From the IMG/VR virus record IMGVR_UViG_3300010052_000170, positions 5,927 through 69,926 of that record: a stretch of DNA of 64,000 nt. One strand, written 5' to 3'. This document shows positions 3,253 through 47,751 of the stretch, in pieces (positions within the stretch are counted from its first letter, which is position 1; every line of letters begins with the position of its first letter). The stretch is from a virus (lineage: Duplodnaviria; Caudoviricetes). Position numbers and translations under genes: made by a program. The notes beneath the pieces are model-generated. The model worked only from the letters and a program-made list of their open reading frames with translations, had not been told where the DNA came from and made no database searches.

Positions 3253-4274
3253 GCCGCCTCCTGCTCTAGGAAGCGGTCGATCTTCTCTTTCGCCCAAGGC
3301 TTCATCTGGATGTGGCGGGTGCCGTCGTTGAAAGGCCGCGCGCCGGGCCATTCGCCACTGTCGAGACATTCGCGGATCTTGTCGAGCGACCAGCGGACAA
3401 CCTGCTCGCCCCGGTCGATTTCGTGAACCGACACCTCGGCATGCGTGGTGTCCGGCACGTCATCCTTGAGGATGTAGAGCAGGGCGAAGGTGTCGAATGG
3501 CACGTCGAGGCTGCGGCAGACCATGCGGGTGATCGCAGCCTGCAGGTAATAGCAGGCGTCGAAAATCTGCTTCTCAAGGAATTCCTCGTCGAAGCTGGAG
3601 GCCGTTTTCAGGTCGGCAAAGACGCCATCGGCGCGCGGGATCGCGTCCGGTCGAGCCTTGAGCCAGATACCGGTCTTCGGGTCTTTCCAGAACATGGACC
3701 GTTCGATGCGGCCGTTGAGGATGCCACCCTGGATCAAGGGATGCTGTGCGGCGTCGGCGCGCATGCGCTCGATCAGTTTCAGGTCATCTCGGCTGATGAC
3801 AGTTCGGCCCTTGGCGTTCGCTTCCAGCCATCCCTTGCAAACATTCGACGAAGGGTGCCAAGGCTTAAAGTTGCCGGTCTTCTCGTCGGGATATGTATCG
3901 GGACGGACGACGAACTGCTCCTCGAAGACTTCGTCACCGAGCAGAAGGCAATGCGCGGCCTTTCCGAAGTCGAGCGCCTTTGTCGTCTCCGGCGTGATGT
4001 GATCCGGGTTCCACTTCCAGCGACCCCAGAATGCCTTCGGGCTTCCGCCATGGGCTGGCACCAGCCATTTCAGCATGCTCTTGGAGATCGAAGGACCGTC
4101 CAACAGATCGCGGTTGCCGTGATAATCTTCGAGCGAGATGCCGCTGTAGATGCCCGGCTCCGAGATCGGCTTGCCATCCCAGACGCGTTCCTTGCGGATG
4201 TTGCCTACCAGGGCATTCGCGATTGAGCCGATGGACTGAAAGGCGTCCCTGTCGATATCGACGTGGGTGTTCAT
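3249..4274 (-). CDS. RecE/exonuclease VIII-like PD-(D/E)XK nuclease (DUF3799)
   Basis: ISKSML, ALDFGKAAHCLLL, LKARPD...DLKT, YYLQAA; directly upstream of recT. Confidence 0.85.
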   Translation of the reverse strand: MNTHVDIDRDAFQSIGSIANALVGNIRKERVWDGKPISEPGIYSGISLEDYHGNRDLLDGPSISKSMLKWLVPAHGGSPKAFWGRWKWNPDHITPETTKALDFGKAAHCLLLGDEVFEEQFVVRPDTYPDEKTGNFKPWHPSSNVCKGWLEANAKGRTVISRDDLKLIERMRADAAQHPLIQGGILNGRIERSMFWKDPKTGIWLKARPDAIPRADGVFADLKTASSFDEEFLEKQIFDACYYLQAAITRMVCRSLDVPFDTFALLYILKDDVPDTTHAEVSVHEIDRGEQVVRWSLDKIRECLDSGEWPGARPFNDGTRHIQMKPWAKEKIDRFLEQEAA

Positions 4275-30990: not shown

Positions 30991-32154
30991 ATGAGCAACA
31001 CGCTCACCGGTCTCATTCCGACCATCTACAATGCGCTGGACGTGGTTTCCCGCGAACTGGTCGGCTTCATCCCCGCGGTGTCTTCGGACATGACCTATGC
31101 CCGTGCCGCAGTCGGTCAGACCGTCATGTCTCCCGTCACCTCGTCTGCCACTGCCAGTGACATCACGCCGGCCGTGACGCCGCCGAACGACGGTGACCAG
31201 ACAATCGGCAATGTGCCGATGACGATCACCAAGGCTCGTCGCGTGCCGATCCGCTGGAACGGCGAGGAAAAGCTCGGCCTGGACAACAACGGCGCCAGCT
31301 ACAACGTCATCCTCTCCAACCAGTTTCAGCAGGGCATGCGTACCCTGGTGAATGAGGTTGAGGCGGACCTTGCCGCTCTGCACACCAAAGCCTCGCGTGC
31401 TTATGGCACGCCGGGGACTGCACCGTTCGGCACCGCTGCAGACCTGAGCGATTCCGCCGGCGCCCTCCGCATCCTGGAGGAGAATGGCGCGCAGGGCCTC
31501 GACTTCCAGCTCGTGCTCGGCACTGCTGCCATGGCCAATCTGCGCGGCAAGCAGTCGGTGCTGTTCAAGGTGAACGAAGCCGGCCGTGAGGACATGCTTC
31601 GCAACGGCATCACCGATCGCCTGCAAAACCTTGCCCTGCGCCAGTCGGCCCAGATCAAGAACTTCACGGCTGGTTCCGGTGCCGCTGCCACCACCAACGC
31701 AGTTGGTTACGCAGTCGGCGCTACGGCTATCACTCTGGCTTCGGCGGGCACCGGCACGATGCTCGCAGGCGATGTGATCAGCTTTGCGGGTGACCCCAAC
31801 AAGTACCTCGTGGTTGTCGGCGATACCGACGTGTCGAACGGCGGCGTCATCACTATCGCCGCTCCTGGCCTGCTGAAGGCCATCCCGGCGGCTGCGACGG
31901 CTGTCACAGTGTCGGCGACCAGCGCGCGCAACATGTTCTTCGCTCGCTCTGCCATCAGTCTGGCAACTCGCGCTCCGGCCCTCCCTCCGCAGGGTGACTC
32001 GGCCATCGATCGTACGATCGTGACCGACATTCTCACGGGTCTGAGCTTCGAAGTGTCGATGTACGCCCAATATCGCCAGATGCAGTTCGAAGTTGCGCTG
32101 GCATGGGGCTGCGCCGCCGTGAAGCCGGAACACATCGGCCTCCTGCTCGGCTAA
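30991..32154 (+). CDS. Major capsid protein (P22-coat-like)
   Basis: MSNTLTGLIPTIYNALDVVSRELVGFIPAV...EVALAWGCAAVKPEHIGLLLG. Confidence 0.9.
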   Translation: MSNTLTGLIPTIYNALDVVSRELVGFIPAVSSDMTYARAAVGQTVMSPVTSSATASDITPAVTPPNDGDQTIGNVPMTITKARRVPIRWNGEEKLGLDNNGASYNVILSNQFQQGMRTLVNEVEADLAALHTKASRAYGTPGTAPFGTAADLSDSAGALRILEENGAQGLDFQLVLGTAAMANLRGKQSVLFKVNEAGREDMLRNGITDRLQNLALRQSAQIKNFTAGSGAAATTNAVGYAVGATAITLASAGTGTMLAGDVISFAGDPNKYLVVVGDTDVSNGGVITIAAPGLLKAIPAAATAVTVSATSARNMFFARSAISLATRAPALPPQGDSAIDRTIVTDILTGLSFEVSMYAQYRQMQFEVALAWGCAAVKPEHIGLLLG

Positions 32155-34301: not shown

Positions 34302-35339
34302 ATGCTCAAACGCCTATCACCCCGCGAGCGCTTCGAACAGCTTGTCGCGACATGGGAGCCGTTGCTTCGCGCCGCCTTTATGGAAGCAATCGACGACATC
34401 CGGTCGAACATCGTGTTGCGGCGGATTGTAGAGCGGCTGGAGCGACAGGACATCGCCGGTGCTATCCGAGCCCTCAACCTTGATGAAGCCGCGTTCCGGC
34501 CGCTGGAAGAGGCGATCCGGCAGGCATTCAACGGCGGAGGTGTTGCAGCGGTCGAGCAGATGCCGGTGCTGCGCGACCCGGAGGGCCATCAAATCGTGGT
34601 GCGCTGGGATGCGCGCAACTTGGCCGCCGAGAACTGGATGCGCGACCACAGCGCAACGCTGGTGACGAACATCGTCGAGGATCAGAAGGTCGCGATCCGA
34701 TCGGCGCTGGAAGAGGGCCTTCGCCGCGGCGACAATCCAACAAAGACGGCGCTGTGGGTCGCGGGGCGCGTAAACAGGGTCACAGGGAAGCGCGAGGGCG
34801 GCATTGTCGGCTTAACCGCGCAACAGAGCCAATATGTGGCCAGCGCACGCCAGGAACTGCTGTCCGGCGATGTGGCTGCCATGCGGAACTATCTGGACCG
34901 CGGTAGGCGGGATAAGCGCTTCGACCGAACTGTGTTGAAGGCGTTGAAGGAAGACAAGCCGCTCCCGGCCGAGACAGTCGACAGGATCGTGACTCGTTAT
35001 GCCGATGGATTGCTGAAGCTCCGCGCCGATACGATCGCGCTGAACGAGACGTTCGAGGCTCTGGCCAGTGCCAAGGAAATCGCTTTCCGCCAGCAGATCG
35101 ACAAGGGCAGGGTGCAAGCTCAGGCGGTGACGAAGACATGGCGGAGGTCGCCGAGCGAGCATCCCAGGCTGCAGCACACCGCAATGCACGGCCAGAAGGT
35201 GCAGTTCGATCAGCCATTCACCGCCCCCGATGGAACGCCGATCCCGTACCCGCATGCTCCTGGTGTCCCGGCGAGGCATACACTCGGTTGTAAATGTTTT
35301 GCGGAGTATAAGATCGATTTCGTGGCTGAACTGGTCTGA
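34302..35339 (+). CDS. Head morphogenesis / minor capsid protein (MuF-like)
   Basis: RDKRFDRTV, RADTIALNET, TKTWR, HPRLQHTAMHGQ, YPH.PG...HTLGCKC. Confidence 0.8.
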   Translation: MLKRLSPRERFEQLVATWEPLLRAAFMEAIDDIRSNIVLRRIVERLERQDIAGAIRALNLDEAAFRPLEEAIRQAFNGGGVAAVEQMPVLRDPEGHQIVVRWDARNLAAENWMRDHSATLVTNIVEDQKVAIRSALEEGLRRGDNPTKTALWVAGRVNRVTGKREGGIVGLTAQQSQYVASARQELLSGDVAAMRNYLDRGRRDKRFDRTVLKALKEDKPLPAETVDRIVTRYADGLLKLRADTIALNETFEALASAKEIAFRQQIDKGRVQAQAVTKTWRRSPSEHPRLQHTAMHGQKVQFDQPFTAPDGTPIPYPHAPGVPARHTLGCKCFAEYKIDFVAELV

Positions 35340-35655: not shown

Positions 35656-36069
35656 ATGGCTTCGTTTGCTGCCCAGGTCGGATCGTGGGCAACCAAAGTT
35701 GAGGGCGCAATCGAGGCGGTATTCAAGGAGAGCGCTCAGGAACTGGTGAGCCAGTTGAACGAGCTCGTGCCGGTCGACACAGGCTTTCTCCGCGCCTCTC
35801 TGATGGCGTCCACCACGGCAATGCCACAGATGACCAGAGCGAACCCAGGCGTGCCGGTGTCGCAGGATCTCGGCGACATAGTCCTGGTAATCGCAGGTGC
35901 CGAAATCGGAGATACCATTTTCCTAGGCTACACCAGCAATTACGCCGGGCATGTACATTTCGGAACGCAAGGGCGCGCACCTCGGCCATGGGTGACGATG
36001 GTGGCGCAGCGGTGGATTGCGATCGTCGAGGCCAAGGCCGCAGAAGTGAAAGCCAGATTGGGGCTGTGA
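35656..36069 (+). CDS. HK97 gp10-like tail completion protein
   Basis: VPVDTGFLRASL...YAGHVHFGT...PRPWV. Confidence 0.8.
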   Translation: MASFAAQVGSWATKVEGAIEAVFKESAQELVSQLNELVPVDTGFLRASLMASTTAMPQMTRANPGVPVSQDLGDIVLVIAGAEIGDTIFLGYTSNYAGHVHFGTQGRAPRPWVTMVAQRWIAIVEAKAAEVKARLGL

Positions 36070-36280: not shown

Positions 36281-36694
36281 ATGCCATCCATCGAAACATC
36301 GATCTGGCTCGCTCTAAAGGCGAGGGGGGAGACACTTGTGCTATCGCCCGCGCTACCAATCGCCTGGCCGAACCTGAGCTTCACCAAGCCGGCGACGGGC
36401 TATTTGCGCGTCACCCACGTGCCGAACATGAACCGGCGGCTGTTCATTGGATCAACCGGTCCGCATCAGCGTCTTGGCCTCCTGCAGATCGACGTGTTGG
36501 GCAAGAAAAACGAGAACATAGCTGTTGCGGTTGAGGTGGCGGGGAAGGTCGCGGCGCACTTCCCAACCGATCTCCGGATGCGCTACGGCGACGTCACAGT
36601 TCGCGTCACCGCCGCGCCGACAGTCGCCCAGCCCATGGATGACGACACCCACGTCCTGGTGCCGGTGACGGTGCCCTATGAATGCTTCGCCTAG
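36281..36694 (+). CDS. Tail terminator protein
   Basis: IAWPN..F.KP...YLRVTHVPN...GLLQIDV...VTVPYE; precedes the tail tube. Confidence 0.75.
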   Translation: MPSIETSIWLALKARGETLVLSPALPIAWPNLSFTKPATGYLRVTHVPNMNRRLFIGSTGPHQRLGLLQIDVLGKKNENIAVAVEVAGKVAAHFPTDLRMRYGDVTVRVTAAPTVAQPMDDDTHVLVPVTVPYECFA

Positions 36695-37256: not shown

Positions 37257-37730
37257 ATGACGGTGACAACCGCCTCGGGGTCGAAGGTATCGATCGGCCC
37301 GACAACCGCCGCGGCGAATGCCGCTGCCTATGCCGCCTTGACCTATGTCCCCATTGGCGAGGTGCAGAACCTTGGTGAGTTCGGCGACCAGTCGAACGAC
37401 GTGACGTTCACTTCGTTGTCGGATGGTCGCGTGCGGCACCTGAAGGGCGCCCGTGATGCCGGCGTGCTCGCCTTGGTCTGCGGCCGTGATCCTCTCGATG
37501 CGGGACAGGTGGCGCTCAGGGCAGCTGAAAAAACCAAATTTGCCTATGCGGTCAAGATCGAAGCGGCGGATGCTCTCGACGCGAATGACACCAACAGCGT
37601 GTTTTACTTTCACTGCCTGGTGCAGTCGGCGCGTGACAATTTCGGCGAGAGCGATGGCATCGTGACGACGACTTTCAATCTCGGCATAACGACCGGAATC
37701 ATCGAAGTTCCAGCGACGGTGGTGCCGTAA
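37257..37730 (+). CDS. Major tail tube protein
   Basis: YVPIGEVQNLGEFGD....VTF.SL.DGRVRHLKG..DAG...L....DP.DAGQVAL. Confidence 0.85.
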   Translation: MTVTTASGSKVSIGPTTAAANAAAYAALTYVPIGEVQNLGEFGDQSNDVTFTSLSDGRVRHLKGARDAGVLALVCGRDPLDAGQVALRAAEKTKFAYAVKIEAADALDANDTNSVFYFHCLVQSARDNFGESDGIVTTTFNLGITTGIIEVPATVVP

Positions 37731-38143
37731 TGGATCTCGCCAAGTTTGATGGTTTCGCCAAGTCCTTCGATGAAGGCATGGTCGTCGATCTCGTCCACCC
37801 TGCAACTGGGGAGAAGCTCGGCATGTCGGTGACGGTCGCGTCGTACCAGTCCGAGCGGGTGAAGAAGCTGCAGCGCAAGATGGCCAACGTCGCCATGCGA
37901 GAGCAGCGCCGGAACCCCAAGAAGGCTTCCACGGTCGAGGAAGTCGAGGAGAAGGCTCACGACATCATGGTCGCCGCCGTGGTGGCCTGGTCTGGCTTCG
38001 AGCGTGAAGGCAAGGAACTGCCTTGCACTCCCGAGAATGTCCGGGCAGTCCTGACAAACCCTGATCTCTGGTTCATCGCCGAGCAGATCGATAAGGCCGC
38101 GGACGACCAGCAGGGTTTTCTGACAGCCTCGGCGCGGACCTGA
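37730..38143 (+). CDS. Tail assembly chaperone (gpG-like)
   Basis: Position after the tail tube; ELPCTPENVRAVL...WFIAEQID. Confidence 0.8.
   Translation: MDLAKFDGFAKSFDEGMVVDLVHPATGEKLGMSVTVASYQSERVKKLQRKMANVAMREQRRNPKKASTVEEVEEKAHDIMVAAVVAWSGFEREGKELPCTPENVRAVLTNPDLWFIAEQIDKAADDQQGFLTASART
38113..38119 (+). other. -1 ribosomal frameshift site G GGT TTT
   Basis: XXXYYYZ heptamer in the correct phase; -1 frame open from 38113 to 38478. Confidence 0.8.
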
Positions 38144-38478: not shown

Positions 38479-38560
38479 TCTCTTTTTCAGTAACATTGGT
38501 TTCTGTCAGTGGCACTCTACATAGAGGCGTCTTATGCTTAGATCTCTTCGGGGGGATTCC

Positions 38561-40549
38561 ATGGCAGAGATGCATTACAAAGTTGAGGTGGAAAGCGACC
38601 ACATCAGAAAACTTACCAGTTCCAAGCCCGTTCCTGCCCTTGCGGAACTAGTTTGGAATTCGATGGACGCGGATTCAACTCGCGTAGACGTAGAGTTCGA
38701 TCGGTCTGAGCTCGGAATGCAAAGTATCTTCGTGCGGGACAATGGACACGGGATACCCTATGCGGAAGTGCCGAAACTCTTTGGCAAGCTTGGCGGTTCA
38801 TGGAAGGCCCACGGAAGTCGCTCAAAGACAAAATCGCGCATGTTGCACGGGAAAGAGGGCAAGGGACGCTTCAAAGCACTTGCTCTAGGTCGCGTCGCTG
38901 AGTGGCAAATTACATACCGCGAAGGAAGCAAGACGTTCGGGTACACGATCACGATTATCCGTGACAACTTAGTCGATGTTCGCGTCTCGGAGCTGACCGA
39001 AATTGACGCCGCGATAAAGCCTGGCGTCGAGGTGAAGATCACTGAATTGGATCGAGCCTTTAGGTCACTCGAACCCGAGCAATCGCTCTCTTCTCTCGCC
39101 CAGATATTCGCTTTGTATCTGACAGATTACTCGGACACCTCGCTTTTCGTTGACTATCAACGCGTCGATCCGTCGGCTTGGATCAAAAGCAGGTCAACGA
39201 TCTCCCTTGCGGCGATTGAAGAGGATGGGAACAGCTTCCCCGCCGAGGTTGAGTTGATAGAGTGGACCACCGCTTCTGAGCGTTGGCTTTTCCTCTGCGG
39301 GCCCGAAGGATTTCCATTCCATCGGATAAGTCCCCATTTCCATACGCCGGGCGTTCAGTTTTCCGCATATCTGAAATCTCCGTTTGTCAGCCATCTCCAG
39401 CAGCTTGGAATTTTGGACCTTGCCGAAATGAACATGTCGCTGCAGTCGGCTCTTGATGAAGCTGGGGGCAAAATAAAGCTCTTCTTCCAAGAACGAGATG
39501 CCCTTGCCGCTCGTACAGAAATCGATCAATGGAAAGCGGAGAGCGTTTATCCCTATCGAGAAGAACCTCGGACGACGGTAGAGCAGGCAGAGCGCAAGGT
39601 TTTTGAGATCGTCGCGCTCACCGTCAATCGGCACCTCCCAGAGTTTTCGGGCGCCAATCGTAAAACGAAGGCGTTTCAGTTGCGTATGCTCCGACAGGCC
39701 ATTGAGCGAGGCCCAGACGAACTTCAGCACATTCTTACAGAGGTTCTCGATCTCCCCGAGCGAAAGCAGCAGGAACTCTCGAAGTTGTTGGAAGAGGCTG
39801 ACTTAGCAAGTGTTATCAGCGCTTCAAAATTGGTGTCGGATCGCCTCAAATTTGTGCATGGGCTGGAGGCACTGCTCTTCGACCCGGACAGTCGGAAGCT
39901 CCTCAAGGAAAGGAGCCAACTCCATCGAATGATTGCGGAAAACAATACCTGGATTTTTGGCGAGGAATTCAATCTCACGGTTGACGATGAATCGCTGACT
40001 GAAGTTCTCAGAAAACACCGCAAGTTAGTTGGCGAAGATATTGTCATTGACCAACCTGTGAAGCGAATTGATGGAAAGGTCGGAATTGTCGACTTGATGC
40101 TCTCTCGGTCGGTCCCGCAAAATCACGCAGATGAGAGAGAGCATCTGGTGGTCGAATTGAAACGTCCGTCTGTGAAGGTTGGCGCAGACGAAATCACTCA
40201 GGTGAAAAAATACGCCTTTACGATCGCAGACGATGAACGATTTAGACATCTGAAGACACGGTGGAGCTTCTGGGTAATATCGAACGACCTTGATGCCTTC
40301 GCTCGTCGAGAGACAAGACATATGGGGAAACCCAAAGGCCAAGTGTTTCAGTCCGAGGACGGAAACATAGAGGTTTGGGTAAAGTCCTGGTCCGAAGTCT
40401 TAGCAGAGTGCAAGTCGCGGATGAAATTCGTCCAGGATCATTTGCAGGCAAATGTCGACAAGGAAAAGTCGCTTCGGTACCTCCAAAAAACCTACGACAA
40501 GTATCTGGCCGGGGTCGTGGAGATTGAAGCACCCGATGAGGCAGCCTGA
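38561..40549 (+). CDS. GHKL (MORC/HATPase_c_3-like) ATPase fused to a PD-(D/E)XK nuclease-like domain
   Basis: ELVWNSMDA, VRDNGHG, GKEGKGRF; C-terminal TWIFGEEF, IVDLML, LVVELKRP, EITQVKKYA. Confidence 0.85.
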   Translation: MAEMHYKVEVESDHIRKLTSSKPVPALAELVWNSMDADSTRVDVEFDRSELGMQSIFVRDNGHGIPYAEVPKLFGKLGGSWKAHGSRSKTKSRMLHGKEGKGRFKALALGRVAEWQITYREGSKTFGYTITIIRDNLVDVRVSELTEIDAAIKPGVEVKITELDRAFRSLEPEQSLSSLAQIFALYLTDYSDTSLFVDYQRVDPSAWIKSRSTISLAAIEEDGNSFPAEVELIEWTTASERWLFLCGPEGFPFHRISPHFHTPGVQFSAYLKSPFVSHLQQLGILDLAEMNMSLQSALDEAGGKIKLFFQERDALAARTEIDQWKAESVYPYREEPRTTVEQAERKVFEIVALTVNRHLPEFSGANRKTKAFQLRMLRQAIERGPDELQHILTEVLDLPERKQQELSKLLEEADLASVISASKLVSDRLKFVHGLEALLFDPDSRKLLKERSQLHRMIAENNTWIFGEEFNLTVDDESLTEVLRKHRKLVGEDIVIDQPVKRIDGKVGIVDLMLSRSVPQNHADEREHLVVELKRPSVKVGADEITQVKKYAFTIADDERFRHLKTRWSFWVISNDLDAFARRETRHMGKPKGQVFQSEDGNIEVWVKSWSEVLAECKSRMKFVQDHLQANVDKEKSLRYLQKTYDKYLAGVVEIEAPDEAA

Positions 40550-40617
40550 GGATAACGCGGTCCGCCTAATTGCCGGAGTCCAAACGGCTTGGATATGATC
40601 CTCGCGGGGTAGGGATC

Positions 40618-42045
40618 ATGACAGACGACATTTGGGCCGGGGATCATCTCAATCGCAAGGAAGATGCGCAGTTTCTTACTGCCTATCTGCTGCAGCGAAA
40701 CGAACTTGCGGTTGTTGTCGGCGACAAGGGCACTTCGATCAACGTGAGCGCACAATGGGGCGCCGGGAAGACGTTCTTTCTGACTAGGCTTGCCCGGCAA
40801 CTTCGAGAAGATGGCTATCGCGTTGCCGAGGTGAACGCCTGGCGAGACGATCATGCTGACGACCCGATTTTCGCGGTGATGTCTGCAGTGCTCAAGGCGC
40901 TCGGGAAGGGGACCAGGTCTGCGAAGGTTGGCAGAACGCTGCTCAACAGCGCAGGCAAGATTGCGGTGCGAGCGTTGAAGGGCGGAGTGAAGAAGGCTGC
41001 TGCGATCGTAATCGACAAAGACGATGTAGACGGCATCGCGGACGACCTCGCCAGGGTTTTTGCGGAAGCAGGAGAGGAGACCATCGGAGAATTTGCCGAC
41101 AAAGCACTGGAGCGCTTTGAAGACGGTCAGAAAGCAATTGATAATTTCCGTTCCGAATTGGCGAAAGGAGTGAAGGGGCAGAAGCCGCTGTTTGTCCTGG
41201 TCGACGAATTGGACCGCTGCAGGCCCACCTACGCGGTCTCCCTATTGGAGCGCATCAAGCACCTTTTTGACGTCCCCAATGTCATCTTCGTTTTTGGGAC
41301 GCACAGTGACCAGCTCACGCACACGATAAGGTCAGTTTATGGAATTGGCTTCGATGCCGATCGATATCTCCATCGCTTCTTCGACACCACGTATCAATTC
41401 GACAGCCCAAAAACTGTGAACTTCGTGCAGGCTAAATGGGATGCCCTTCAGTTTAAGGATGCGCGTTTCGTAGAGATACACGGCACCAGCCAGCAAGCCT
41501 GTATTGCTAAGATCGCCGACAACAAAAGGCTCTCGCTACGCGACATTGATCAATGCATGGACGCGCTTTGGACCATAACCGGTCAACTCGACCCGCGCGT
41601 ACCTGTACCTCTTTTGTATCTCTTCCCGCTGGTTGTTGCCTACCATCTGCGATTGACCGATGTATTCGAGTTTGGGGCGGGTGAACCGGCTCGGGCATCG
41701 CTGCGGCAAGATGAAATCCAAGCTTTTTATGACGGTTCGGAGATATACAGCCGACAGATTTACAGCCGCACATCTCAGAATCACATCTGGCAAACGATGT
41801 CTCTTTCGCCCTTGATTTCTGCGTTCCGGTCTCTGCTCGCCAACGGATTGAACCAAGATGTTGCGTCCGACAATCTCGGCTATTCATATGCAGAGCGCTA
41901 TCGAGACGCTGAATTCCGAATTCTTCACTCGAGCATGTCTCGAGGAGAAAAGGTCCCAACGATCCTAGAATCGTATGGGAGCATGATCAGACGGGTCGGG
42001 CGCATAGGAGCCACCCCTGAAAATGATGAAGGTGAGCGCCGCTAG
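40618..42045 (+). CDS. KAP-family P-loop NTPase
   Basis: AQWGAGKTFF (Walker A), VNAWRDDH, LFVLVDELDRCRPTYAVSLLERIKHLFDVPNVIFV, RYLHRFFD. Confidence 0.92.
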   Translation: MTDDIWAGDHLNRKEDAQFLTAYLLQRNELAVVVGDKGTSINVSAQWGAGKTFFLTRLARQLREDGYRVAEVNAWRDDHADDPIFAVMSAVLKALGKGTRSAKVGRTLLNSAGKIAVRALKGGVKKAAAIVIDKDDVDGIADDLARVFAEAGEETIGEFADKALERFEDGQKAIDNFRSELAKGVKGQKPLFVLVDELDRCRPTYAVSLLERIKHLFDVPNVIFVFGTHSDQLTHTIRSVYGIGFDADRYLHRFFDTTYQFDSPKTVNFVQAKWDALQFKDARFVEIHGTSQQACIAKIADNKRLSLRDIDQCMDALWTITGQLDPRVPVPLLYLFPLVVAYHLRLTDVFEFGAGEPARASLRQDEIQAFYDGSEIYSRQIYSRTSQNHIWQTMSLSPLISAFRSLLANGLNQDVASDNLGYSYAERYRDAEFRILHSSMSRGEKVPTILESYGSMIRRVGRIGATPENDEGERR

Positions 42046-42072
42046 CAGTGAATGTCACGCAAAACGTGAAAC

Positions 42073-42285
42073 TCAGTCCGAAGCTTTGAGATAACCATGG
42101 CTGATGAGCCAATCGCGGATGATGCGGCGGATCGCTTCAGAGCGGGGTGGTTTGTCCGTTTCATCCAGGGCGAAAGCGTCGATTGCGTCAGTGAGCTCCG
42201 GCTCCATGCGAACGCTAATATGTGGTTGCTTCCCGGTAGCCGGGCGGCCTCGTTTTTTAGGTGTTACATTTTTTGTTGACGGCAT
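42073..42285 (-). CDS. Ribbon-helix-helix (Arc/CopG-like) regulator
   Basis: KKRGRPATG...ISVRMEPEL..AID.F......RSEAIRRIIRDWL. Confidence 0.85.
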   Translation of the reverse strand: MPSTKNVTPKKRGRPATGKQPHISVRMEPELTDAIDAFALDETDKPPRSEAIRRIIRDWLISHGYLKASD

Positions 42286-42304
42286 ATTTTAGGTGTGCCA
42301 TAAA
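42255..42304 (+). promoter_or_regulatory. Sigma70-type promoter with direct repeats, driving the RAMP-like operon
   Basis: TTGACG (42276-81)-N17-CATAAA (42299-304); TTTTAGGTGT at 42255-64 and 42287-96. Confidence 0.65.
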
Positions 42305-42374
42305 AGTCGGGCCGAAGCAAGAGTACCAGTCTTGCAGCGGCCCTAACCGAAACGAACCTGTTAGCGAGGATCGA

Positions 42375-42593
42375 ATGGCTGCGAACAGCAGTACCATGCG
42401 CCGGCGTGCACGCTCAACTCATTCAAAACGCGAAGCAATCATTGTCGACCTGATGGCCCAGGCTGAAGGTGCCGGCAAAGCGCTTCGCGTTCTTTCGAAG
42501 GTCGTGGCCGACACGATGGAAGAGGTTCACGGACGCAAGTTCCGTGTCTGCATCGACCACGACACCCCGATGATTCTGATCCGGCTCGACTAA
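42375..42593 (+). CDS. Small hypothetical protein (HG..RV.IDH family)
   Basis: GAGGA RBS; resembles 7976-8215. Confidence 0.65.
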   Translation: MAANSSTMRRRARSTHSKREAIIVDLMAQAEGAGKALRVLSKVVADTMEEVHGRKFRVCIDHDTPMILIRLD

Positions 42594-42605
42594 GGGGAGG
42601 GACGG

Positions 42606-42914
42606 ATGAAACAGATCACTCGTCGCCTTTTTCTTCGCCAATCCGTCGCCGCCAGCGTTGTGGCTCCGGCCGTCGTCGCAGCTACCGGAGTGGTGGCCGA
42701 ACCGCGGCAGGTGCGAGATGTCATGGAAGAGCTTGAACGCTTGATCCAAAAGCAAACTGGTGTGGGCTGGTCGGTGATGCTAGCCGCCAACGAGACGATT
42801 ATCCTAGATGGGATGCCAAGACTGCCCATGGTCTGCTTCGCTCGAAGCTCGGACGGAACCCCGCAGTGGCAAGACAAATACGGCGTAGTCGAAACTGCGT
42901 CGGTGACCACCTGA
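42606..42914 (+). CDS. Small protein with twin-arginine-like N-terminus
   Basis: MKQITRRLFLRQSVAASVVAPAVVAA; GGGAGG RBS. Confidence 0.6.
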   Translation: MKQITRRLFLRQSVAASVVAPAVVAATGVVAEPRQVRDVMEELERLIQKQTGVGWSVMLAANETIILDGMPRLPMVCFARSSDGTPQWQDKYGVVETASVTT

Positions 42915-43043
42915 ACACCTGAATTCCGCCTCTGGCAGGGCGGTTTAGACGCGAAATTCGAGAGCTTCTTCGGCTCCCGGTTTCGCCAACGCGAACCCGT
43001 GCGTCTCGGGCCTGCCAGGGCCGGGATGCCGAAGGAGGCCATT

Positions 43044-43697
43044 ATGGCTACGAAGCAAGACGTCGGAATTGAACTGCCGGCCCTGAAAATCGGGCTGATG
43101 GAAGTGACCTTGATCGGCGACAGTCCGCTGATCGTCCATGCGTGGAGCCACAAGGCAAAGCGCGAAATGCTCGACAAACAGATGAAGAAGGCCAAGGGCG
43201 CCAAGGAGGCGAAAGACCCGAAGGCCGATTATGAGGCGAGCATGTATCGCTTGGCCGATGGTGGTTACGGCTTCCCCTCGGTGGGCTTCAAGGCCGCCGC
43301 AGTCACGGCAGGAACCAGCGTGGCAGGGTTGACCAAGATCGCGGCTCGGCAGGCTTTCCACGTTCTCGGTGAGGATGTGGACATCAAGGGTGCATTCGAA
43401 GGCTCGGTCTCTCGCGTCAACCTTGCCCGTATCGAAGGCGGAGATCCGCAGATGCGCGAAGACATGGTTCGCGTCGGCATGGGAACGGCAGACCTACGGT
43501 ACAGGGCTGAGTTCCCGAAATGGCATGCACGCGTTCTGGTTAGGTACAATCAGGGCGTCCTATCGGAAAGCCAGATCCTGAACCTGCTCAATACAGCTGG
43601 CTTCGCTGTCGGCGTAGGCGAGTGGCGGCCGGAAAAGGATGGGGCCTATGGGATGTTCCACGTTGCGACCGAAGCCGAACTGGAGACCTTGCAATGA
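43044..43697 (+). CDS. Cas7/RAMP-like protein (Vipr-like), putative RNA-guided effector
   Basis: EVTLIGDSPLIVH (RAMP beta1, like L...SPLHIG); YGFPSVGFKAA (like IPGSSLKGA); C-terminal G-loop AGFAVGVGEWRPEKDGAYGMFHV; AAGGAGG RBS; next to the GGY-NN array. Confidence 0.8.
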   Translation: MATKQDVGIELPALKIGLMEVTLIGDSPLIVHAWSHKAKREMLDKQMKKAKGAKEAKDPKADYEASMYRLADGGYGFPSVGFKAAAVTAGTSVAGLTKIAARQAFHVLGEDVDIKGAFEGSVSRVNLARIEGGDPQMREDMVRVGMGTADLRYRAEFPKWHARVLVRYNQGVLSESQILNLLNTAGFAVGVGEWRPEKDGAYGMFHVATEAELETLQ

Positions 43698-44209
43698 GGA
43701 TCGCCGGTTTCGAGTTTAGCGATGGTGCTCGGTTCCAGGCGGGAGCGCCGCACGACGCCAAGGCAGCGAAGGCCGTCGGCGACCATTTGGAGTTACTGAG
43801 GAAGCAGCACCAGAATGAGTTGACGCCGGAAGACGTCTTGGAAGACGCGAAGCACGACAACTCACCATTGCATCCGTACTTTGAATGGTCAGACAGTGCC
43901 GCTGCGCATCAGCACCGGCTCGCGCAAGCGCGAGGGTTAATCAGGAGCGTCGTCGCGATCTATGTCAGCGAGGATAAGCCGGCCGTGAGGACGAAGGCGT
44001 TCGTGCATATCGCTGAACCGTCTGCACCTCACTATCGAGAAGCATCGCACGCGATGAGCCAGCAGAAGACACGAAAGATGGTTCTTCAGCAGGCGTGGCG
44101 AGAGCTCCAAGCTTGGAAGTCCCGCTACAAACATCTGCAGGAATTTTCTGATCTTATCACCGTCATCGACGAGGTAGATCGGCATCTGCCAAAGGCCGCA
44201 AAGCATTAG
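43694..44209 (+). CDS. Accessory protein coupled to the RAMP-like gene
   Basis: ATGA overlap; LTPEDVLEDAKHDNSPLHPYFEWSDSAAAHQHRLAQARGLIRSV. Confidence 0.8.
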   Translation: MRIAGFEFSDGARFQAGAPHDAKAAKAVGDHLELLRKQHQNELTPEDVLEDAKHDNSPLHPYFEWSDSAAAHQHRLAQARGLIRSVVAIYVSEDKPAVRTKAFVHIAEPSAPHYREASHAMSQQKTRKMVLQQAWRELQAWKSRYKHLQEFSDLITVIDEVDRHLPKAAKH

Positions 44210-44217
44210 GGCTTCAA

Positions 44218-44590
44218 GGCAGGCGGGGTCTGGCATGTCCGGGTTCGGTGTGCCCTGGCGCGCCATGGTTAGGCAGGTGAAATGCGCGGAGCCGGATGCC
44301 CATCCGGCTGGCGAGGATCAAGGTAGGGCAGGCGTGGTAAGTCCAGGGAAGGTGGGACACGGCCGGGTAAGGTGCGGCAGGCTTGGCTAGGCGGGTTGCG
44401 GCTAGTCGCGGCACGGCAGGCAAGGCAAGCCTAGGTCCGATTTGGCAAGGTATGGCTTGGCTAGGCAGGCAAGGCACGGCGAGGTTCGGCGCGGTAAGCC
44501 TAGGTTCGGCGACGCATGTTATGGCAGGCGTGGTATGTTAAGCTAAGGCATCGTACGGTGAGGCCGGGCCTGCTCTGGCGAGGCAGGCAA
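44218..44590 (+). ncRNA. GGY-NN pentamer array (putative guide-RNA precursor, 7 units)
   Basis: Strict 5-nt periodicity; eight 4-nt GGCA breaks at 44218, 44272, 44327, 44376, 44415, 44464, 44523, 44582; begins 8 nt after the accessory stop and ends at a terminator. Confidence 0.85.
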
Positions 44591-44594
44591 ACGG

Positions 44595-44620
44595 GAGCGG
44601 TTCTTCGGAGCCGCTCTTTC
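44595..44620 (+). terminator. Terminator closing the array
   Basis: gagcggttc-TTCG-gagccgctc followed by tttc. Confidence 0.7.
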
Positions 44621-45218
44621 ATCTCCCGAACAGGCGTTGCAGCCACGACTTCCTGCTTGCTTCATGCTCCGTCTCCTCCCGGTGGGCAGCAACCACCTTT
44701 CCAACGTAGTCAACCTGAGGGCGGATGCCGAGTGCGCAAGCCTCGTTAGCGCAATCACCCGGCGGCAGCGTGTGTAGTTGTTCCGGCTCGATCTCTTGGT
44801 TGTTCAGCCTGACGCAGCCTGGACAGTCACCCCACGCCAACCTGATGTGAAATGTCACGTCATCTCCGAGATCGGTGCCGACCAACGCTTGCATTTGTCG
44901 ATGTCGAAAGTATGCGAAATTTGCATCCAGAACGGTGACTTCAATGCCCTTTATCGGGGCGGATAGTCCTTTCTCGGTTAGTGCGGATATAGCTTCATGC
45001 GACATGTCAGCATTTGCGCGAAGGCCAATGCTTTTCTTGGCTTCCCGGGGAAGGGGCTGCCCGGTCTGCCGAAACTGCCGCGCAATCTGGTGTGGATGAG
45101 TTCCTTCGTATTCCTCCATAAGAGCCGCAATTTGCTGGAAACACTCTGGCTTGAGGTATCCGAGGCGACGGCCTGATCGGTCGACGTGTTCAAGGAACTT
45201 GCTTCCATGGTCAGTCAT
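44619..45218 (-). CDS. Hypothetical moron
   Basis: 199 aa; CPGC and C...C..C motifs; ends SWLQRLFGR. Confidence 0.65.
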   Translation of the reverse strand: MTDHGSKFLEHVDRSGRRLGYLKPECFQQIAALMEEYEGTHPHQIARQFRQTGQPLPREAKKSIGLRANADMSHEAISALTEKGLSAPIKGIEVTVLDANFAYFRHRQMQALVGTDLGDDVTFHIRLAWGDCPGCVRLNNQEIEPEQLHTLPPGDCANEACALGIRPQVDYVGKVVAAHREETEHEASRKSWLQRLFGR

Positions 45219-45558: not shown

Positions 45559-47751
45559 ATGGACGTCGCACAGCTTGGTCTTGAGGTCCGAAGCGAGCAG
45601 GTCGAACGCGGCACCTCGTCTTTGAATCGCTTTGCCGGCGCAGCCAAGCAGGCGGAGGCGGCAACAAAAGGGATCACGACTGGCGCTCGCGGTGCAGCTA
45701 GCGCTGTGCAGGCCGTGGCTGGTGCCAGCGACAATGCGGCAGGTGCTCTCAATCGTGAGGCTGGAGCTGCGCGGAATGCTTCCGCCGCCATGAAGGGGCA
45801 CGCCACCGCGGTCAATGACAATGCGAGGCGCATGGGAGGTAGCTTTTCTGGCCTAGCCGCTCAGTTTCAAGACATCGGGGTCACTGCTGCCGGTGGCATG
45901 AACCCCCTCATAATCGGCCTGCAGCAAGGCACACAGATTGCCGGTGCAATGGAAATGGCGATGCAAAGCGGCGCATCCGCGACTGGTGTATTTGGCGCCG
46001 CGCTAAAATCCCTCCTCTCGCCTGTCTCGCTCCTTTCGATCGGCCTTGCTGTGCTACTCGCCGCCGGCCTTCAGATGGTGAACTGGTCGAAGGCCGCTGC
46101 TGCCGTACTAGATGGGCTGGCCGGTATCCTGGAAGATATTGCGCCGTACGCCGTTGCCGCTGCGGCTGGGTTGGCGCTGATTTACGCGCCGGCCATCATC
46201 GGAGGCCTGACACTCCTTTCCGAGATGATCCTTGGGCTAACGGCAAGGCTCATCGGATTGGCTGCTGGCTTCGCTCTCGCCAACCCGGCCACTGCCTTCA
46301 TTGCCGGTGTCACAGCGGCAGTAGCGGCCGCGGTCATTTTCAGGGACGAATTGACCAGAATTCTGGGGGTGGATGTCGTTGGCGCTGCCAAGGCTGGGGC
46401 AAATTTTATCGTCAACAGCTTCGAAGCCGCCTTTTCAGATGTGAAGTTCATCTGGAACAATTTCGGCGACATGATGGGGGCCGCTGTTGTCGGCGGGGTC
46501 AACATTGCTATCCGTGCCATCGACGAACTTATCCAGAAAGCATCGGAAGGCATCGACTGGCTCATTAAGAAGGTCAACCCATACCTGGAAATGGGCGGCA
46601 TGGACCCACTCAGGGAAGTGGGCGGAAGCTTTTCGCTCAAGCCACTCGCCAACCCATACGCTGACCGTTTCGCCAAGGCCAACACCTCCCACGCTGCAGA
46701 AATCGCCGACATCATGAGCCAGGATCGGCTCGGCCAGTTTGGTACAGCGATTGCAAATCGCGCTTCGGCCGCGTCTGGCAAGTTGAAGGAACTGGCCGAT
46801 TGGGTTGGAAAGGTCGACGAAAAGACCGGCAAGAAGGCGGGTAAAAGCGAGGCCGAAAAATACTCATCGATCATCGACGGAGCGAACCGCCGCATAGCTT
46901 CGTTGCAGTCCGAATACGACGCGCTCGGCATGACCGAGTTCGCCGCCGCTAAACTAGCGTATCAGACAGACATGCTGAACGAGGCGCAGCGCAAGGGGAT
47001 CACCCTTACCGCGGCTCAGAAGGCTGAGATTTCTGATCTCGCAGGCCGCTTGGCTTCGCTTGAGATCGCCACGCGCGACGCCCGCGATGCGATGGACTTC
47101 GCGAAGGACATGACGAAGGGCTTCGTTTCGGATCTCCGCTCAGGCTTGGAGCAGGGAAAAGGCTTCTGGCAGAGCTTCGGCAATGCGGCGCTGAACGTCC
47201 TCGACAAGATCACAGACAAGTTGCTTGACGACTTGCTGAACGCCATCTTCAGGGTGAACTCGGCAGGGTCTTCTGGCGGCGGCGGTTTCTGGGGCATCCT
47301 CGGAAGCCTGTTCGGCCTTGGTGGGGGAGGTGGCAGCGGCCTCGGTGGTCTGACCTGGGATAGCTGGGCTAAAGGCGGTTACACCGGACCTGGAGGCAAG
47401 TACGAGCCTGCTGGCACGGTACATCGAGGCGAATATGTCTTCTCGGCCGCTGCAACCCGCATGATCGGCGTGGCCAACCTCGACCGTGCTCACAGGAGTG
47501 CTCGGCGCGGCTATGCCGAGGGCGGCTACGTCGACAACAGCACACCACGTCTGTTTGCCCCGGCAAACCGGAATGACGCTCAGCCAATCGTCTATTCGCC
47601 GACGATCCAGATCGACGCTCGTGGCGCAGAGAATGGTGACGACATCCGCCGTGCCGGCCAGGAGCTTCTGAAGCAGATGCGCGGCGAATTCTACAACAAC
47701 ACGAAGAAGGCGTTGCAGCTGCTCAAGATCAACACCGGAGGGCGGTTCTGA
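45559..47751 (+). CDS. Tape measure protein (730 aa)
   Basis: MDVAQLGLEVRS; AAQFQDIGVTAAGGMNP...LQQGTQI; Ala/Gly-rich; AKGGYTGPGGKYEPAGTVHRGEYVF. Confidence 0.92.
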   Translation: MDVAQLGLEVRSEQVERGTSSLNRFAGAAKQAEAATKGITTGARGAASAVQAVAGASDNAAGALNREAGAARNASAAMKGHATAVNDNARRMGGSFSGLAAQFQDIGVTAAGGMNPLIIGLQQGTQIAGAMEMAMQSGASATGVFGAALKSLLSPVSLLSIGLAVLLAAGLQMVNWSKAAAAVLDGLAGILEDIAPYAVAAAAGLALIYAPAIIGGLTLLSEMILGLTARLIGLAAGFALANPATAFIAGVTAAVAAAVIFRDELTRILGVDVVGAAKAGANFIVNSFEAAFSDVKFIWNNFGDMMGAAVVGGVNIAIRAIDELIQKASEGIDWLIKKVNPYLEMGGMDPLREVGGSFSLKPLANPYADRFAKANTSHAAEIADIMSQDRLGQFGTAIANRASAASGKLKELADWVGKVDEKTGKKAGKSEAEKYSSIIDGANRRIASLQSEYDALGMTEFAAAKLAYQTDMLNEAQRKGITLTAAQKAEISDLAGRLASLEIATRDARDAMDFAKDMTKGFVSDLRSGLEQGKGFWQSFGNAALNVLDKITDKLLDDLLNAIFRVNSAGSSGGGGFWGILGSLFGLGGGGGSGLGGLTWDSWAKGGYTGPGGKYEPAGTVHRGEYVFSAAATRMIGVANLDRAHRSARRGYAEGGYVDNSTPRLFAPANRNDAQPIVYSPTIQIDARGAENGDDIRRAGQELLKQMRGEFYNNTKKALQLLKINTGGRF

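What the first reader, a model, noticed from the sequence alone, without database searches (positions are those of the whole stretch)
42073..44620. Candidate RNA-guided inter-phage system: Cas7/RAMP-like gene, accessory gene and GGY-NN guide array
Seen: a divergent RHH gene and promoter, then an operon ending in a 217-aa protein with RAMP-like hallmarks (TLIGDSPLIVH, FPSVGFKAA, C-terminal GVGEWRPEKDGAYGMF loop), a coupled 171-aa gene, a 373-nt array with 5-nt periodicity, and a terminator. There are no cas1/cas2 genes and no repeat-spacer CRISPR. Established: RAMP/Cas7 proteins polymerise along guide RNA in class 1 CRISPR complexes. From memory, and not checkable here, this layout matches the recently described VIPR systems (GGY/NN RNAs that read DNA with a gapped code). 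Inference: each array unit is a guide whose GGY is bound by protein and whose NN pairs with the target, skipping every third base. The next findings give independent in-window support.
Basis: partly seen in the sequence, partly recalled or inferred. Interest (0 to 1): 0.96.

Follow-up and report, generated by a model that had tools for sequence, protein, structure and literature searches.

The report
Prophage VIPR RNA-guided silencing system
A rhizobial prophage carries a complete VIPR system, a CRISPR-related phage weapon first described in 2026 preprints, and several of its guide RNAs match tail genes and the VIPR accessory gene of rival phages; it is a well-supported new example of a known kind.

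Summary
The 217-aa protein (43044-43697) is a Vipr. The family profile matches the solved SUSP1 Vipr protein (PDB 36pp) at E 1.6e-13, and the residues that bind GGY are kept. The AlphaFold model (pLDDT 96) matches only Cas7-type proteins.

A translationally coupled accessory gene (vap, 43694-44209) follows. After it lies a 369-nt array (44218-44586) on the same strand. Eight GGCAG boundary pentamers cut the array into six guides of 8-12 GGYNN units and one conserved hairpin leader. Neighbouring units overlap by 1 nt, which is the published "staggered" array form.

Of 91 homologous loci with enough downstream sequence, 82 carry such an array beside vipr.

Under the published one-base-skip rule:
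- Guide 1 matches the vap gene of relatives at up to 19/20 positions, but its own vap at only 15/20, because own Leu, Arg and Ser use the other synonymous codon family.
- Guide 3 matches a rival's major tail gene 18/18.
- Guide 4 matches a rival's tail sheath gene 14/14.
- Guides 6 and 7 sit nearest to the prophage's own tape-measure gene (17/22 each).

All these matches are sense-strand with the skipped base at the codon wobble position.

There is no Cas1 and no CRISPR repeat. Expression and binding remain untested. This scan has found VIPR before on at least seven other genomes.

The parts
42073..42285 (-). Divergent ribbon-helix-helix regulator gene. It is a likely transcriptional controller of the module, but is not a defining part of it.
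   Evidence: Pfam RHH_1 E 1.3e-5. phrog_4738 transcriptional repressor. A divergent RHH homologue lies upstream of vipr in L002, L004, L006, L009 and L010.
42915..43043 (+). Structured 129-nt leader upstream of vipr. It holds a GGCAGG / CCTGCC inverted repeat and the vipr ribosome-binding site.
   Evidence: RNA fold -59.2 kcal/mol, z -2.45, 3 of 200 shuffles fold as well. Its role is not tested.
43044..43697 (+). vipr: a minimal Cas7-like RAMP protein of 217 aa. It is predicted to polymerise on the guide RNA, one protomer per GGYNN unit.
   Evidence: phmmer to PDB 36pp_D 'SUSP1 Vipr protein' E 3e-4. Family profile to the same chain E 1.6e-13, over chain residues 3-188. AF2 pLDDT 96.2, pTM 0.90. 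The listed Foldseek matches are all Cas7-type proteins (Csm3, Cmr4, type VII Cas7, Cas7-11), best E 6e-6. SUSP1 contact residues H17, K33, R39, R138, D177, W178, R179 align with H32, K48, K54, R154, E193, W194, R195.
43694..44209 (+). vap: a 171-aa accessory protein, translationally coupled to vipr through an ATGA overlap.
   Evidence: Found next to vipr in 80 of about 100 related loci, down to 26% identity. phrog_15946, no Pfam family. AF2 pLDDT 94: a mixed alpha/beta domain (1-118) plus a 40-residue helix. The only fold matches are weak winged-helix-like ones, Z 5.5 or less.
44218..44586 (+). Staggered vrRNA array. Eight GGCAG boundary pentamers lie at 44218, 44272, 44327, 44376, 44415, 44464, 44523 and 44582.
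   Evidence: Parse. Periodicity statistics. The same grammar occurs in relatives: 203 of 309 boundary spacings are 4 mod 5, with peaks at 44, 49, 54, 59 and 64 nt.
44222..44276 (+). Guide 1 (11 units), aimed at the vap gene of rival VIPR-carrying phages.
   Evidence: At least 17/20 NN matches in 33 fetched loci and 19/20 in four. There are no such matches under skip 0 or 2 (one under skip 3), and almost none with shuffled guide order. The site encodes the conserved Vap motif GLIRSVVAIY in codon phase 0. The prophage's own vap (43934-43962) matches only 15/20.
44276..44331 (+). Conserved array leader with a hairpin (formerly 'unit 2'). It is not a guide.
   Evidence: Near-identical element in 8 loci. 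In five of them it directly follows the vap stop codon. RNAalifold predicts 11 pairs, 3 of them with compensatory changes in 7 sequences. It is 56 nt long, out of the 5-nt register.
44331..44380 (+). Guide 3 (10 units), aimed at a rival phage's major tail protein gene.
   Evidence: 18/18 NN match at L013:3899-3924, inside ORF 3704-4201 (phrog_158 major tail protein), codon phase 0. The homologous site in the prophage's own major tail gene matches 12/18.
44380..44419 (+). Guide 4 (8 units), aimed at a tail sheath gene of a contractile-tailed rival.
   Evidence: 14/14 at L020:2343-2362, inside ORF 789-2807 (phrog_205 tail sheath), phase 0. A longer sister guide in Mesorhizobium locus L009 matches the same site 18/18.
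44419..44468 (+). Guide 5 (10 units, AT-rich NN). Target unknown.
   Evidence: No hit of 16/18 or better in 1.46 Mb of related loci. The 29 exact IMG/VR hits all lie in unrelated viruses of 21-50% GC, so they are chance matches.
44468..44527 (+). Guide 6 (12 units), probably aimed at tape-measure gene alleles of close relatives.
   Evidence: Its unique best in-window hit is the prophage's own tape-measure gene at 46843, 17/22, sense strand, phase 0. Shuffled guides reach 17 in 2% of trials and land there in 2.6%. The homologous site in L003/L014 also scores 17/22. No exact match in the viral or metagenome collections.
44527..44586 (+). Guide 7 (12 units), probably aimed at tape-measure gene alleles of close relatives.
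   Evidence: Its unique best in-window hit is the own tape-measure gene at 47197, 17/22, sense strand, phase 0. Shuffled guides reach 17 in 6% of trials and land there in 1.2%. No exact match elsewhere.
44593..44618 (+). Terminator-like hairpin that closes the array. It abuts the convergent ORF 44619-45218.
   Evidence: 11-bp stem with a UUCG-type loop, -18.1 kcal/mol, z -2.36.

Best explanation
This is a functional VIPR (Viral Interference Programmable Repeat) system of the staggered-array form. It sits in a moron island between the tail chaperone and tape-measure genes of a siphovirus-like rhizobial provirus.

Inferred mechanism, taken from the published SUSP1 and P. fulva systems:
- The vipr-vap-array unit is transcribed.
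- The array transcript is cut, or read, at the GGCAG boundaries into guides of 40-60 nt.
- Vipr protomers coat each guide, one per pentamer. They hide the GGY bases and present the NN dinucleotides.
- The filament pairs with double-stranded DNA that reads NN-x-NN-x, and blocks transcription there.

Shown here in silico:
- The guides spell codon positions 1-2 of conserved peptide motifs in rival phages' genes: vap, the major tail protein and the tail sheath. The tape-measure gene is a likely further target.
- The skipped base falls on the wobble position, so synonymous third-position drift cannot give escape.
- The prophage's own copies score below the published 80% threshold. For vap this is because Leu, Arg and Ser use the alternative six-fold codon family.

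The likely biological role is to silence late and VIPR genes of superinfecting or co-resident related phages in the same Mesorhizobium-like host.
For: Protein:
- Sequence and profile homology to the solved SUSP1 Vipr.
- A confident Cas7-like model.
- The residues that contact GGY are conserved or conservatively replaced.

Array:
- Strong lag-5 periodicity, unique in the window.
- The 1-nt-overlap register breaks described for staggered arrays.
- The same grammar across about 100 related loci.

Linkage:
- 82 of 91 vipr homologue loci have an adjacent same-strand array.
- vap is co-conserved with vipr.

Targeting:
- Pooling 41 guides from this clade gives 55 hits at 85% NN or better under the 1-nt skip rule, against 5.7 for shuffled guide order. 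Skip 0 and 2 stay at control level; skip 3 gives 13 against 5.0.
- Window guides 1, 3 and 4 match at 19/20, 18/18 and 14/14 in phage genes, all sense strand and codon phase 0.
- No self-target at 80% or better in the 70-kb record, as the paper reports for its systems.
- Relatives' guides hit this prophage's vipr (18/20) and its tail completion gene (15/16).

Context:
- IMG/VR provirus record, 91% complete by CheckV's estimate.
- Head and tail genes flank the locus.
Against: - No expression, processing, RNP or binding data exist for this locus or for any staggered array of this clade.
- The exact ends of the processed guides are inferred from a figure legend only.
- About 27% of the pentamers depart from strict GGY.
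- Guide 5 has no target, and guides 6 and 7 have only 77% matches, to the prophage's own gene.
- Many target hits are homologous sites and so are not independent events. The independent ones number about six.
- Vap has no recognisable fold match, so its role is unknown.
- The VIPR type (I-VII) could not be assigned, because the paper's tables are not held.
Confidence: 0.88

Rival explanations
1. The guides act partly on the prophage itself. Guides 6 and 7 (17/22 to its own tape-measure gene) and guide 1 (15/20 to its own vap) would give weak, tunable self-repression of late genes or of the system. This would work as an autoregulatory or lysogeny-maintenance circuit, not purely as a weapon against rivals.
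For: The unique best in-window hits of guides 6 and 7 both lie in the own tape-measure gene, sense strand and in codon phase. That is far from chance. The own vap site is the best in-window skip-1 hit of guide 1.
Against: All three own-gene matches fall below the 80% NN threshold at which published systems act, and the papers report no self-targeting. Relatives' alleles match guide 1 much better (19-20/20). That pattern is the one expected for self-sparing, not self-regulation.
Confidence: 0.07
2. The locus is a decaying or inactive VIPR relic. The protein and array would persist by descent, but the array would no longer be processed or loaded.
For: 27% of pentamers are degenerate. One array unit is not a guide. 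No consensus promoter was found. Three of six guides lack a clear target.
Against: Both genes are intact and coupled, with the key residues kept. Internal degeneracy is described as usual for vrRNAs. Perfect 18/18 and 14/14 matches to rival genes, and self-sparing codon choices, indicate recent selection.
Confidence: 0.04
3. The G-rich pentamer tract is a DNA-level element, not a guide-RNA array. It could be protein-binding iterons for Vap or the RHH protein, or a G-quadruplex or recombination tract. The target matches would then be coincidental.
For: The leader contains a palindrome whose symmetry would also fit a dimeric DNA-binding protein. Vap weakly resembles winged-helix proteins.
Against: The variable NN positions of three guides spell conserved codons of phage genes only under the 1-nt skip rule. 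A DNA iteron model does not predict this. The array is strictly strand-specific and co-oriented with vipr in about 80 loci. The homologous SUSP1 tract is shown to be RNA bound by Vipr.
Confidence: 0.01

Closest known systems
VIPR systems with staggered vrRNA arrays (bioRxiv 10.64898/2026.04.26.720920, text and fig. S18 legend)
   Same: - A lone Vipr RAMP gene, an adjacent vap gene and a GGYNN array whose neighbouring guides overlap by 1 nt.
- Proviral location.
- One-base-skip matches to competing phages, with the skipped base at the wobble position.
- No self-targets at 80% or better.
   Different: The published description of this array form is a legend without sequence, and its processing was not confirmed experimentally. 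Added here for one clade:
- The explicit boundary word GGCAG.
- The 9-13-unit length classes.
- A conserved hairpin leader.
The VIPR type (I-VII) of this locus is unassigned.
Type II VIPR of Escherichia phage SUSP1 and the P. fulva prophage (PDB 36pp; bioRxiv 10.64898/2026.04.26.720927 and 10.64898/2026.10.15.759431)
   Same: - The Vipr protein is homologous (profile E 1.6e-13), with the H, R, D/E-W-R contacts to GGY kept.
- Guides of 8-12 units against 9-16.
- Guides aimed at rivals' VIPR genes, with lower self-match.
   Different: - SUSP1 vrRNAs are about 100 nt, each with a 40-nt structured 3' tail or pseudoknot, and are separate genes. Here the guides are 40-60 nt, have no tail, and are chained with register slips behind one shared leader hairpin.
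- Targets here are tail structural genes and vap of related temperate phages, not a satellite recombinase or cI/cro-type regulators.
- G-loop D177 is Glu here.
Class 1 CRISPR-Cas backbone proteins (Csm3, Cmr4, type VII Cas7, Cas7-11)
   Same: RRM core, thumb hairpin and glycine-rich loop. The listed Foldseek matches are all of this group (E 6e-6 and weaker, TM about 0.4-0.5).
   Different: - No repeat-spacer array, no Cas1/Cas2, no Cas5, Cas6 or large subunit.
- Sequence identity is only 8-15%.
- The guide is read in a gapped 2-of-5 code instead of 5-of-6.

Membership tests
VIPR system | Vipr protein: a minimal RAMP homologous to the published Vipr family | tested here: met
   Profile of 68 family members against PDB 36pp_D SUSP1 Vipr: E 1.6e-13, nearly full length. 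Single sequence: E 3e-4. The model's listed Foldseek matches are all Cas7-type proteins.
VIPR system | Residues that bind the GGY bases (SUSP1 H17, R138, D177, W178, R179) and the DNA backbone (K33, R39) | tested here: met
   They align with H32, R154, E193, W194, R195, K48 and K54. R154 and R195 are invariant in alignment A1. D177 is conservatively Glu.
VIPR system | vrRNA tract of at least four YNNGG/GGYNN tandem units next to vipr | tested here: met
   Six guides of 8-12 units at 44222-44586. 46 of 63 pentamers are strict GGY. Periodicity is well above shuffles.
VIPR system | Adjacent vipr-accessory (vap) gene in a minimal two-gene locus | tested here: met
   The 171-aa gene overlaps the vipr stop codon. 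It is co-conserved in 80 related loci. Identity with one of the published vap1-6 classes could not be checked, because their sequences are not held.
VIPR system | No CRISPR array and no adaptation genes; viral or proviral context | tested here: met
   No Cas1 in the record. No short direct repeats. Provirus record with head and tail genes on both sides.
VIPR system | Guides match other mobile elements under the 1-nt skip rule and do not match their own contig at 80% or better | tested here: met
   Skip-1 hits 55 against 5.7 for shuffled guide order; skip 0 and 2 at control level, skip 3 at 13 against 5.0. Guides 1, 3 and 4 match at 19/20, 18/18 and 14/14. The best self-matches are 75-77%.
VIPR system | vrRNAs are expressed, bound by Vipr, and direct DNA binding and transcriptional silencing | not testable with these tools
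   Needs sRNA-seq, pull-down and reporter assays.
VIPR staggered-array form | Neighbouring vrRNAs overlap by 1 nt, so the end of one marks the start of the next | tested here: met
   Boundary spacings are 54, 55, 49, 39, 49, 59 and 59 nt, which is 4 mod 5 for all six guides. The same holds in 203 of 309 spacings in relatives. The legend of fig. S18 was read. The figure itself is not held.
Type II VIPR (SUSP1 clade) | Each vrRNA carries a conserved structured 3' tail or pseudoknot of about 40 nt | tested here: not met
   Guides abut one another with no tail. The only conserved structure is one hairpin leader, at 44276-44331.
Class 1 CRISPR-Cas | Repeat-spacer array with Cas6/Cas5 handle recognition and a multi-subunit effector | tested here: not met
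   No direct repeats of 22 nt or more within 120 nt anywhere in the window. No Cas1. Only one RAMP gene is present.

The most novel reading that the evidence does not exclude
VIPR conflict imposes selection on synonymous codon families, and this clade uses a tail-less way of making guides.

- Codon families: a phage that carries a guide against a conserved peptide motif of its rivals protects its own copy by moving Leu, Arg and Ser to the alternative six-fold codon family. These are the only synonymous changes visible to an NN-x code.
- Guide making: guides would be delimited by a 1-nt register slip at GGCAG and launched from a single covarying hairpin leader.

Neither point appears in the text I could read of the three preprints.
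Probability: 0.35. Interest if true: 0.5.

Novelty: new member of a known kind. Interest (0 to 1): 0.35.

Why it matters
This extends the newly described VIPR systems to temperate phages of rhizobia. It also gives concrete, testable guide-target pairs: vap, major tail, tail sheath and, probably, tape-measure genes of rival phages.

Three further points follow.
- The one-base-skip code is recovered independently in this clade.
- The grammar of the staggered array form is spelled out: the GGCAG boundary, a hairpin leader, and 9-13-unit guides.
- The locus suggests a simple route to self-immunity through six-fold codon switching.

None of this changes the published picture. It adds examples and two small hypotheses.

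Tried and rejected
- Exact-pattern scans for guides 1, 6 and 7 in IMG/VR, and for guides 6 and 7 in JGI metagenomes, found nothing. Exact matching is too strict for this purpose.
- The guide 5 exact scan gave 29 hits, all in unrelated AT-rich viruses. I rejected them as chance.
- Guide 6 with up to 3 mismatches in 202 Mesorhizobium genomes gave one hit (L012). It is out of codon phase in an unannotated ORF, so I rejected it as chance.
- A search for tape-measure relatives in IMG/VR found none.
- A family alignment was too diverse for the search for related loci.
- Rfam found no ribozyme or other RNA family at 42000-44800. This is therefore not the hammerhead-interspersed array form.
- No sigma-70 consensus promoter was found.
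- Vap fold searches were inconclusive. Foldseek gave no match better than E 0.25. VIA-align gave Z 5.5 or less, with winged-helix and coiled-coil rows at noise level.
- No solo vrRNA lies elsewhere in the window.
- The paper's supplementary tables of loci and types are not held, so I could not check whether this clade is already in its set of 667 systems.
Full report
**What is there**

The window belongs to an IMG/VR provirus record of 69,926 bases, 91% complete by CheckV's estimate.

PHROG matches give a siphovirus-like late region:
- major head protein, 30991-32154
- head morphogenesis protein, 34302-35339
- tail completion protein, 35656-36069
- tail terminator, 36281-36694
- major tail protein, 37257-37730
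- tail chaperone, 37730-38143
- tape measure protein, 45559-47751

Between the chaperone and the tape measure lies an island, 38534-45218. It holds the following:
- a GHKL-type ATPase gene
- a KAP NTPase gene
- a divergent RHH gene, 42073-42285 (-)
- two small ORFs
- the 217-aa gene, 43044-43697
- the overlapping 171-aa gene, 43694-44209
- a G-rich tract
- a hairpin, 44593-44618
- a convergent 199-aa ORF with no family match

**The protein is a Vipr**

- Pfam has no match. phrog_4652 (unknown function) matches at E 3e-34.
- The family is very large: 7472 hits in the 5.8-billion-protein set and 3744 clusters at 50% identity.
- Against PDB sequences, the single protein hits 36pp_D, named 'SUSP1 Vipr protein', at E 3e-4. 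A profile of 68 diverse homologues hits the same chain at E 1.6e-13 over chain residues 3-188.
- The cryo-EM preprint names the SUSP1 residues that hold the GGY bases and the DNA backbone. In the alignments these map as H17 to H32, K33 to K48, R39 to K54, R138 to R154, D177 to E193, W178 to W194 and R179 to R195. R154 and R195 are invariant in the family alignment.
- The AlphaFold model is confident (pLDDT 96.2, pTM 0.90). Its listed Foldseek matches in the PDB are all Cas7-type proteins: Csm3, type VII Cas7, Cmr4 and Cas7-11 (best E 6e-6, TM about 0.4-0.5).

**The array**

- GG dinucleotides recur at lag 5, 30-31 times in 380 nt. Elsewhere in the window the mean is 2.7 (sd 2.6). Dinucleotide shuffles of the tract give 12.5 (sd 3.1, maximum 24 of 2000).
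- The phase slips back by one base at eight GGCAG words: 44218, 44272, 44327, 44376, 44415, 44464, 44523 and 44582.
- If the shared G is counted on both sides, the units are 55, 56, 50, 40, 50, 60 and 60 nt.
[quoted passage not shown] S18 legend).
- The grammar is family-wide. In about 100 related loci, 203 of 309 GGCAGG-to-GGCAGG spacings on the vipr strand are 4 mod 5, with peaks at 44, 49, 54, 59 and 64 nt. The opposite strand has only 11 such spacings in all.
- The 56-nt second unit is not a guide. It is a conserved element found in eight loci, and in five of them it directly follows the vap stop codon. Its hairpin keeps three pairs through compensatory changes. I read it as the array leader. 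In this window and in L009, guide 1 lies upstream of it.

**Linkage in relatives**

I fetched 11 genome loci and about 90 IMG/VR loci.
- Of 91 loci with at least 900 nt downstream of vipr, 82 have a same-strand pentamer array next to the gene.
- vap homologues lie beside vipr in 80 loci, down to 26% identity.
- The RHH gene recurs in five of the eight close (alphaproteobacterial) genome loci.
- The other ORFs upstream of vipr do not recur, apart from weak partial matches to the 72-aa ORF (42375-42593) in L002 and L009.
- Cultured phages with homologues include Gordonia and Mycobacterium phages. All copies are annotated as hypothetical proteins.

**Targets**

I applied the published rule: the guide's NN dinucleotides pair with the DNA and one DNA base is skipped per unit.

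Own record. No guide reaches 80% of its NN positions. This agrees with the paper's report of no self-targeting.

Pooled test. Across the related loci, 41 guides parsed from this clade give 55 hits at 85% or better under skip 1, against 5.7 for shuffled guide order. Skip 0 and 2 stay at control level, and skip 3 gives 13 against 5.0.

Guide 1:
- It matches the vap gene of relatives at 17/20 or better in 33 fetched loci, and at 19/20 in four.
- The site encodes the conserved Vap motif GLIRSVVAIY, with the skipped base at the wobble position.
- The window's own vap matches only 15/20. Its Leu, Arg and Ser codons belong to the other six-fold family, and one further position differs.
- The three loci that carry such an anti-vap guide (window, L009, L041) all have a TTR Leu codon and a non-CGN codon at this site. 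Most non-carriers use CTN and CGN. Only two of the three carriers are independent lineages, so this is suggestive and no more.

Guide 3:
- It matches L013:3899-3924 at 18/18, inside a major tail protein gene, in codon phase 0.
- About 4e-5 such matches are expected by chance in the 2.9 million positions searched.
- The homologous site in the prophage's own major tail gene matches 12/18.

Guide 4:
- It matches a tail sheath gene at L020:2343-2362, 14/14.
- A longer sister guide in the Mesorhizobium locus L009 matches the same site 18/18.

Guides 6 and 7:
- Each has its unique best in-window hit in the prophage's own tape-measure gene (46843 and 47197), 17/22, sense strand and in phase.
- Shuffled guides reach 17 in 2% and 6% of trials. 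Their top hit falls in that gene, strand and phase in only 2.6% and 1.2%.
- I read these as spared self copies of sites aimed at relatives' tape-measure alleles, which were not sampled.

Guide 5 has no target.

Attack in the other direction. A guide of the Chelativorans locus L002 matches this window's vipr at 43176-43204 (18/20) but its own vipr at only 13/20. A guide of L004 matches the window's tail completion gene at 35911-35933 (15/16).

DNA, not mRNA. Every assigned match has the guide identical in sense to the coding strand. Such a guide would pair with the template DNA strand and could not pair with the mRNA. This fits DNA targeting.

**The accessory protein**

The model is confident (pLDDT 94): an alpha/beta domain followed by a 40-residue helix. 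Foldseek finds nothing better than E 0.25. The unfiltered structural search gives Z 5.5 or less. Some rows there are winged-helix regulators, but the scores are at noise level. The preprint predicts DNA-binding Vaps for several types. I could neither confirm nor exclude that here.

**Comparison and verdict**

The locus meets every sequence-testable feature of VIPR and of its staggered-array form. It does not have the structured tail on each guide that marks the SUSP1 (type II) clade. It is not a CRISPR-Cas system: it has no Cas1 and no repeats. Rfam finds no ribozyme.

Expression, processing, loading and silencing are all inferred from the homologous systems.

The kind is already published, and this scan has met it on at least seven other genomes. 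This is therefore a new member of a known kind. It comes with good target predictions and two small additions: the hairpin leader and codon-family self-sparing.

Noticed in passing
window 38534-42045: A GHKL-type ATPase gene (Pfam HATPase_c_3, E 2e-15) is followed 20 nt later by a KAP-family P-loop NTPase gene (E 1.7e-33). Both sit in the same moron island and make a candidate two-gene defence module. In Mesorhizobium locus L009 the first protein is 99.7% identical but the KAP protein only 67%.
   Followed up: partly
window 43044-44280 compared with L009:6001-7282: The VIPR locus is mosaic. L009 shares vap (99% aa), guide 1 (one base different) and the leader (identical core) with the window, but its vipr is only 79% identical and its later guides differ. 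This suggests recombination inside the locus. It may be driven by rival guides that target vipr.
   Followed up: partly
window 43176-43204 and 35911-35933: The window's own vipr gene and its tail completion gene are predicted targets of guides carried by related phages. The guide at L002:5773 matches vipr 18/20, and the guide at L004:7340 matches the tail completion gene 15/16. Both matches are in codon phase 0.
   Followed up: partly
window 44222-44586 and its targets: All assigned targets, for both the window's and relatives' guides, lie on the coding strand in codon phase 0. The preprint reports targets on both strands. The bias could reflect how guides arise, or better blocking when the template strand is bound.
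   Followed up: no
window 42915-43043: The 129-nt region upstream of vipr folds strongly (-59 kcal/mol, z -2.45). Its outer stem pairs a GGCAGG word, the same word as the array boundary, with its complement. It may be a regulatory leader.
   Followed up: partly
window 42606-42914: This 102-aa ORF has a twin-arginine-like signal peptide (RRLFL followed by a hydrophobic stretch). It lies between the RHH gene and vipr, has no family match, and is absent from related VIPR loci.
   Followed up: no
window 44619-45218 (-): A convergent 199-aa ORF abuts the array terminator. It has no Pfam or PHROG match and no homologue in the 11 genome loci.
   Followed up: no
L041 (IMG/VR locus): A second, independent lineage carries an anti-vap guide (18/20 to the same motif pattern). 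Its own vap site is altered at the same codons (TTG, AAG, GCG; 15/20).
   Followed up: partly
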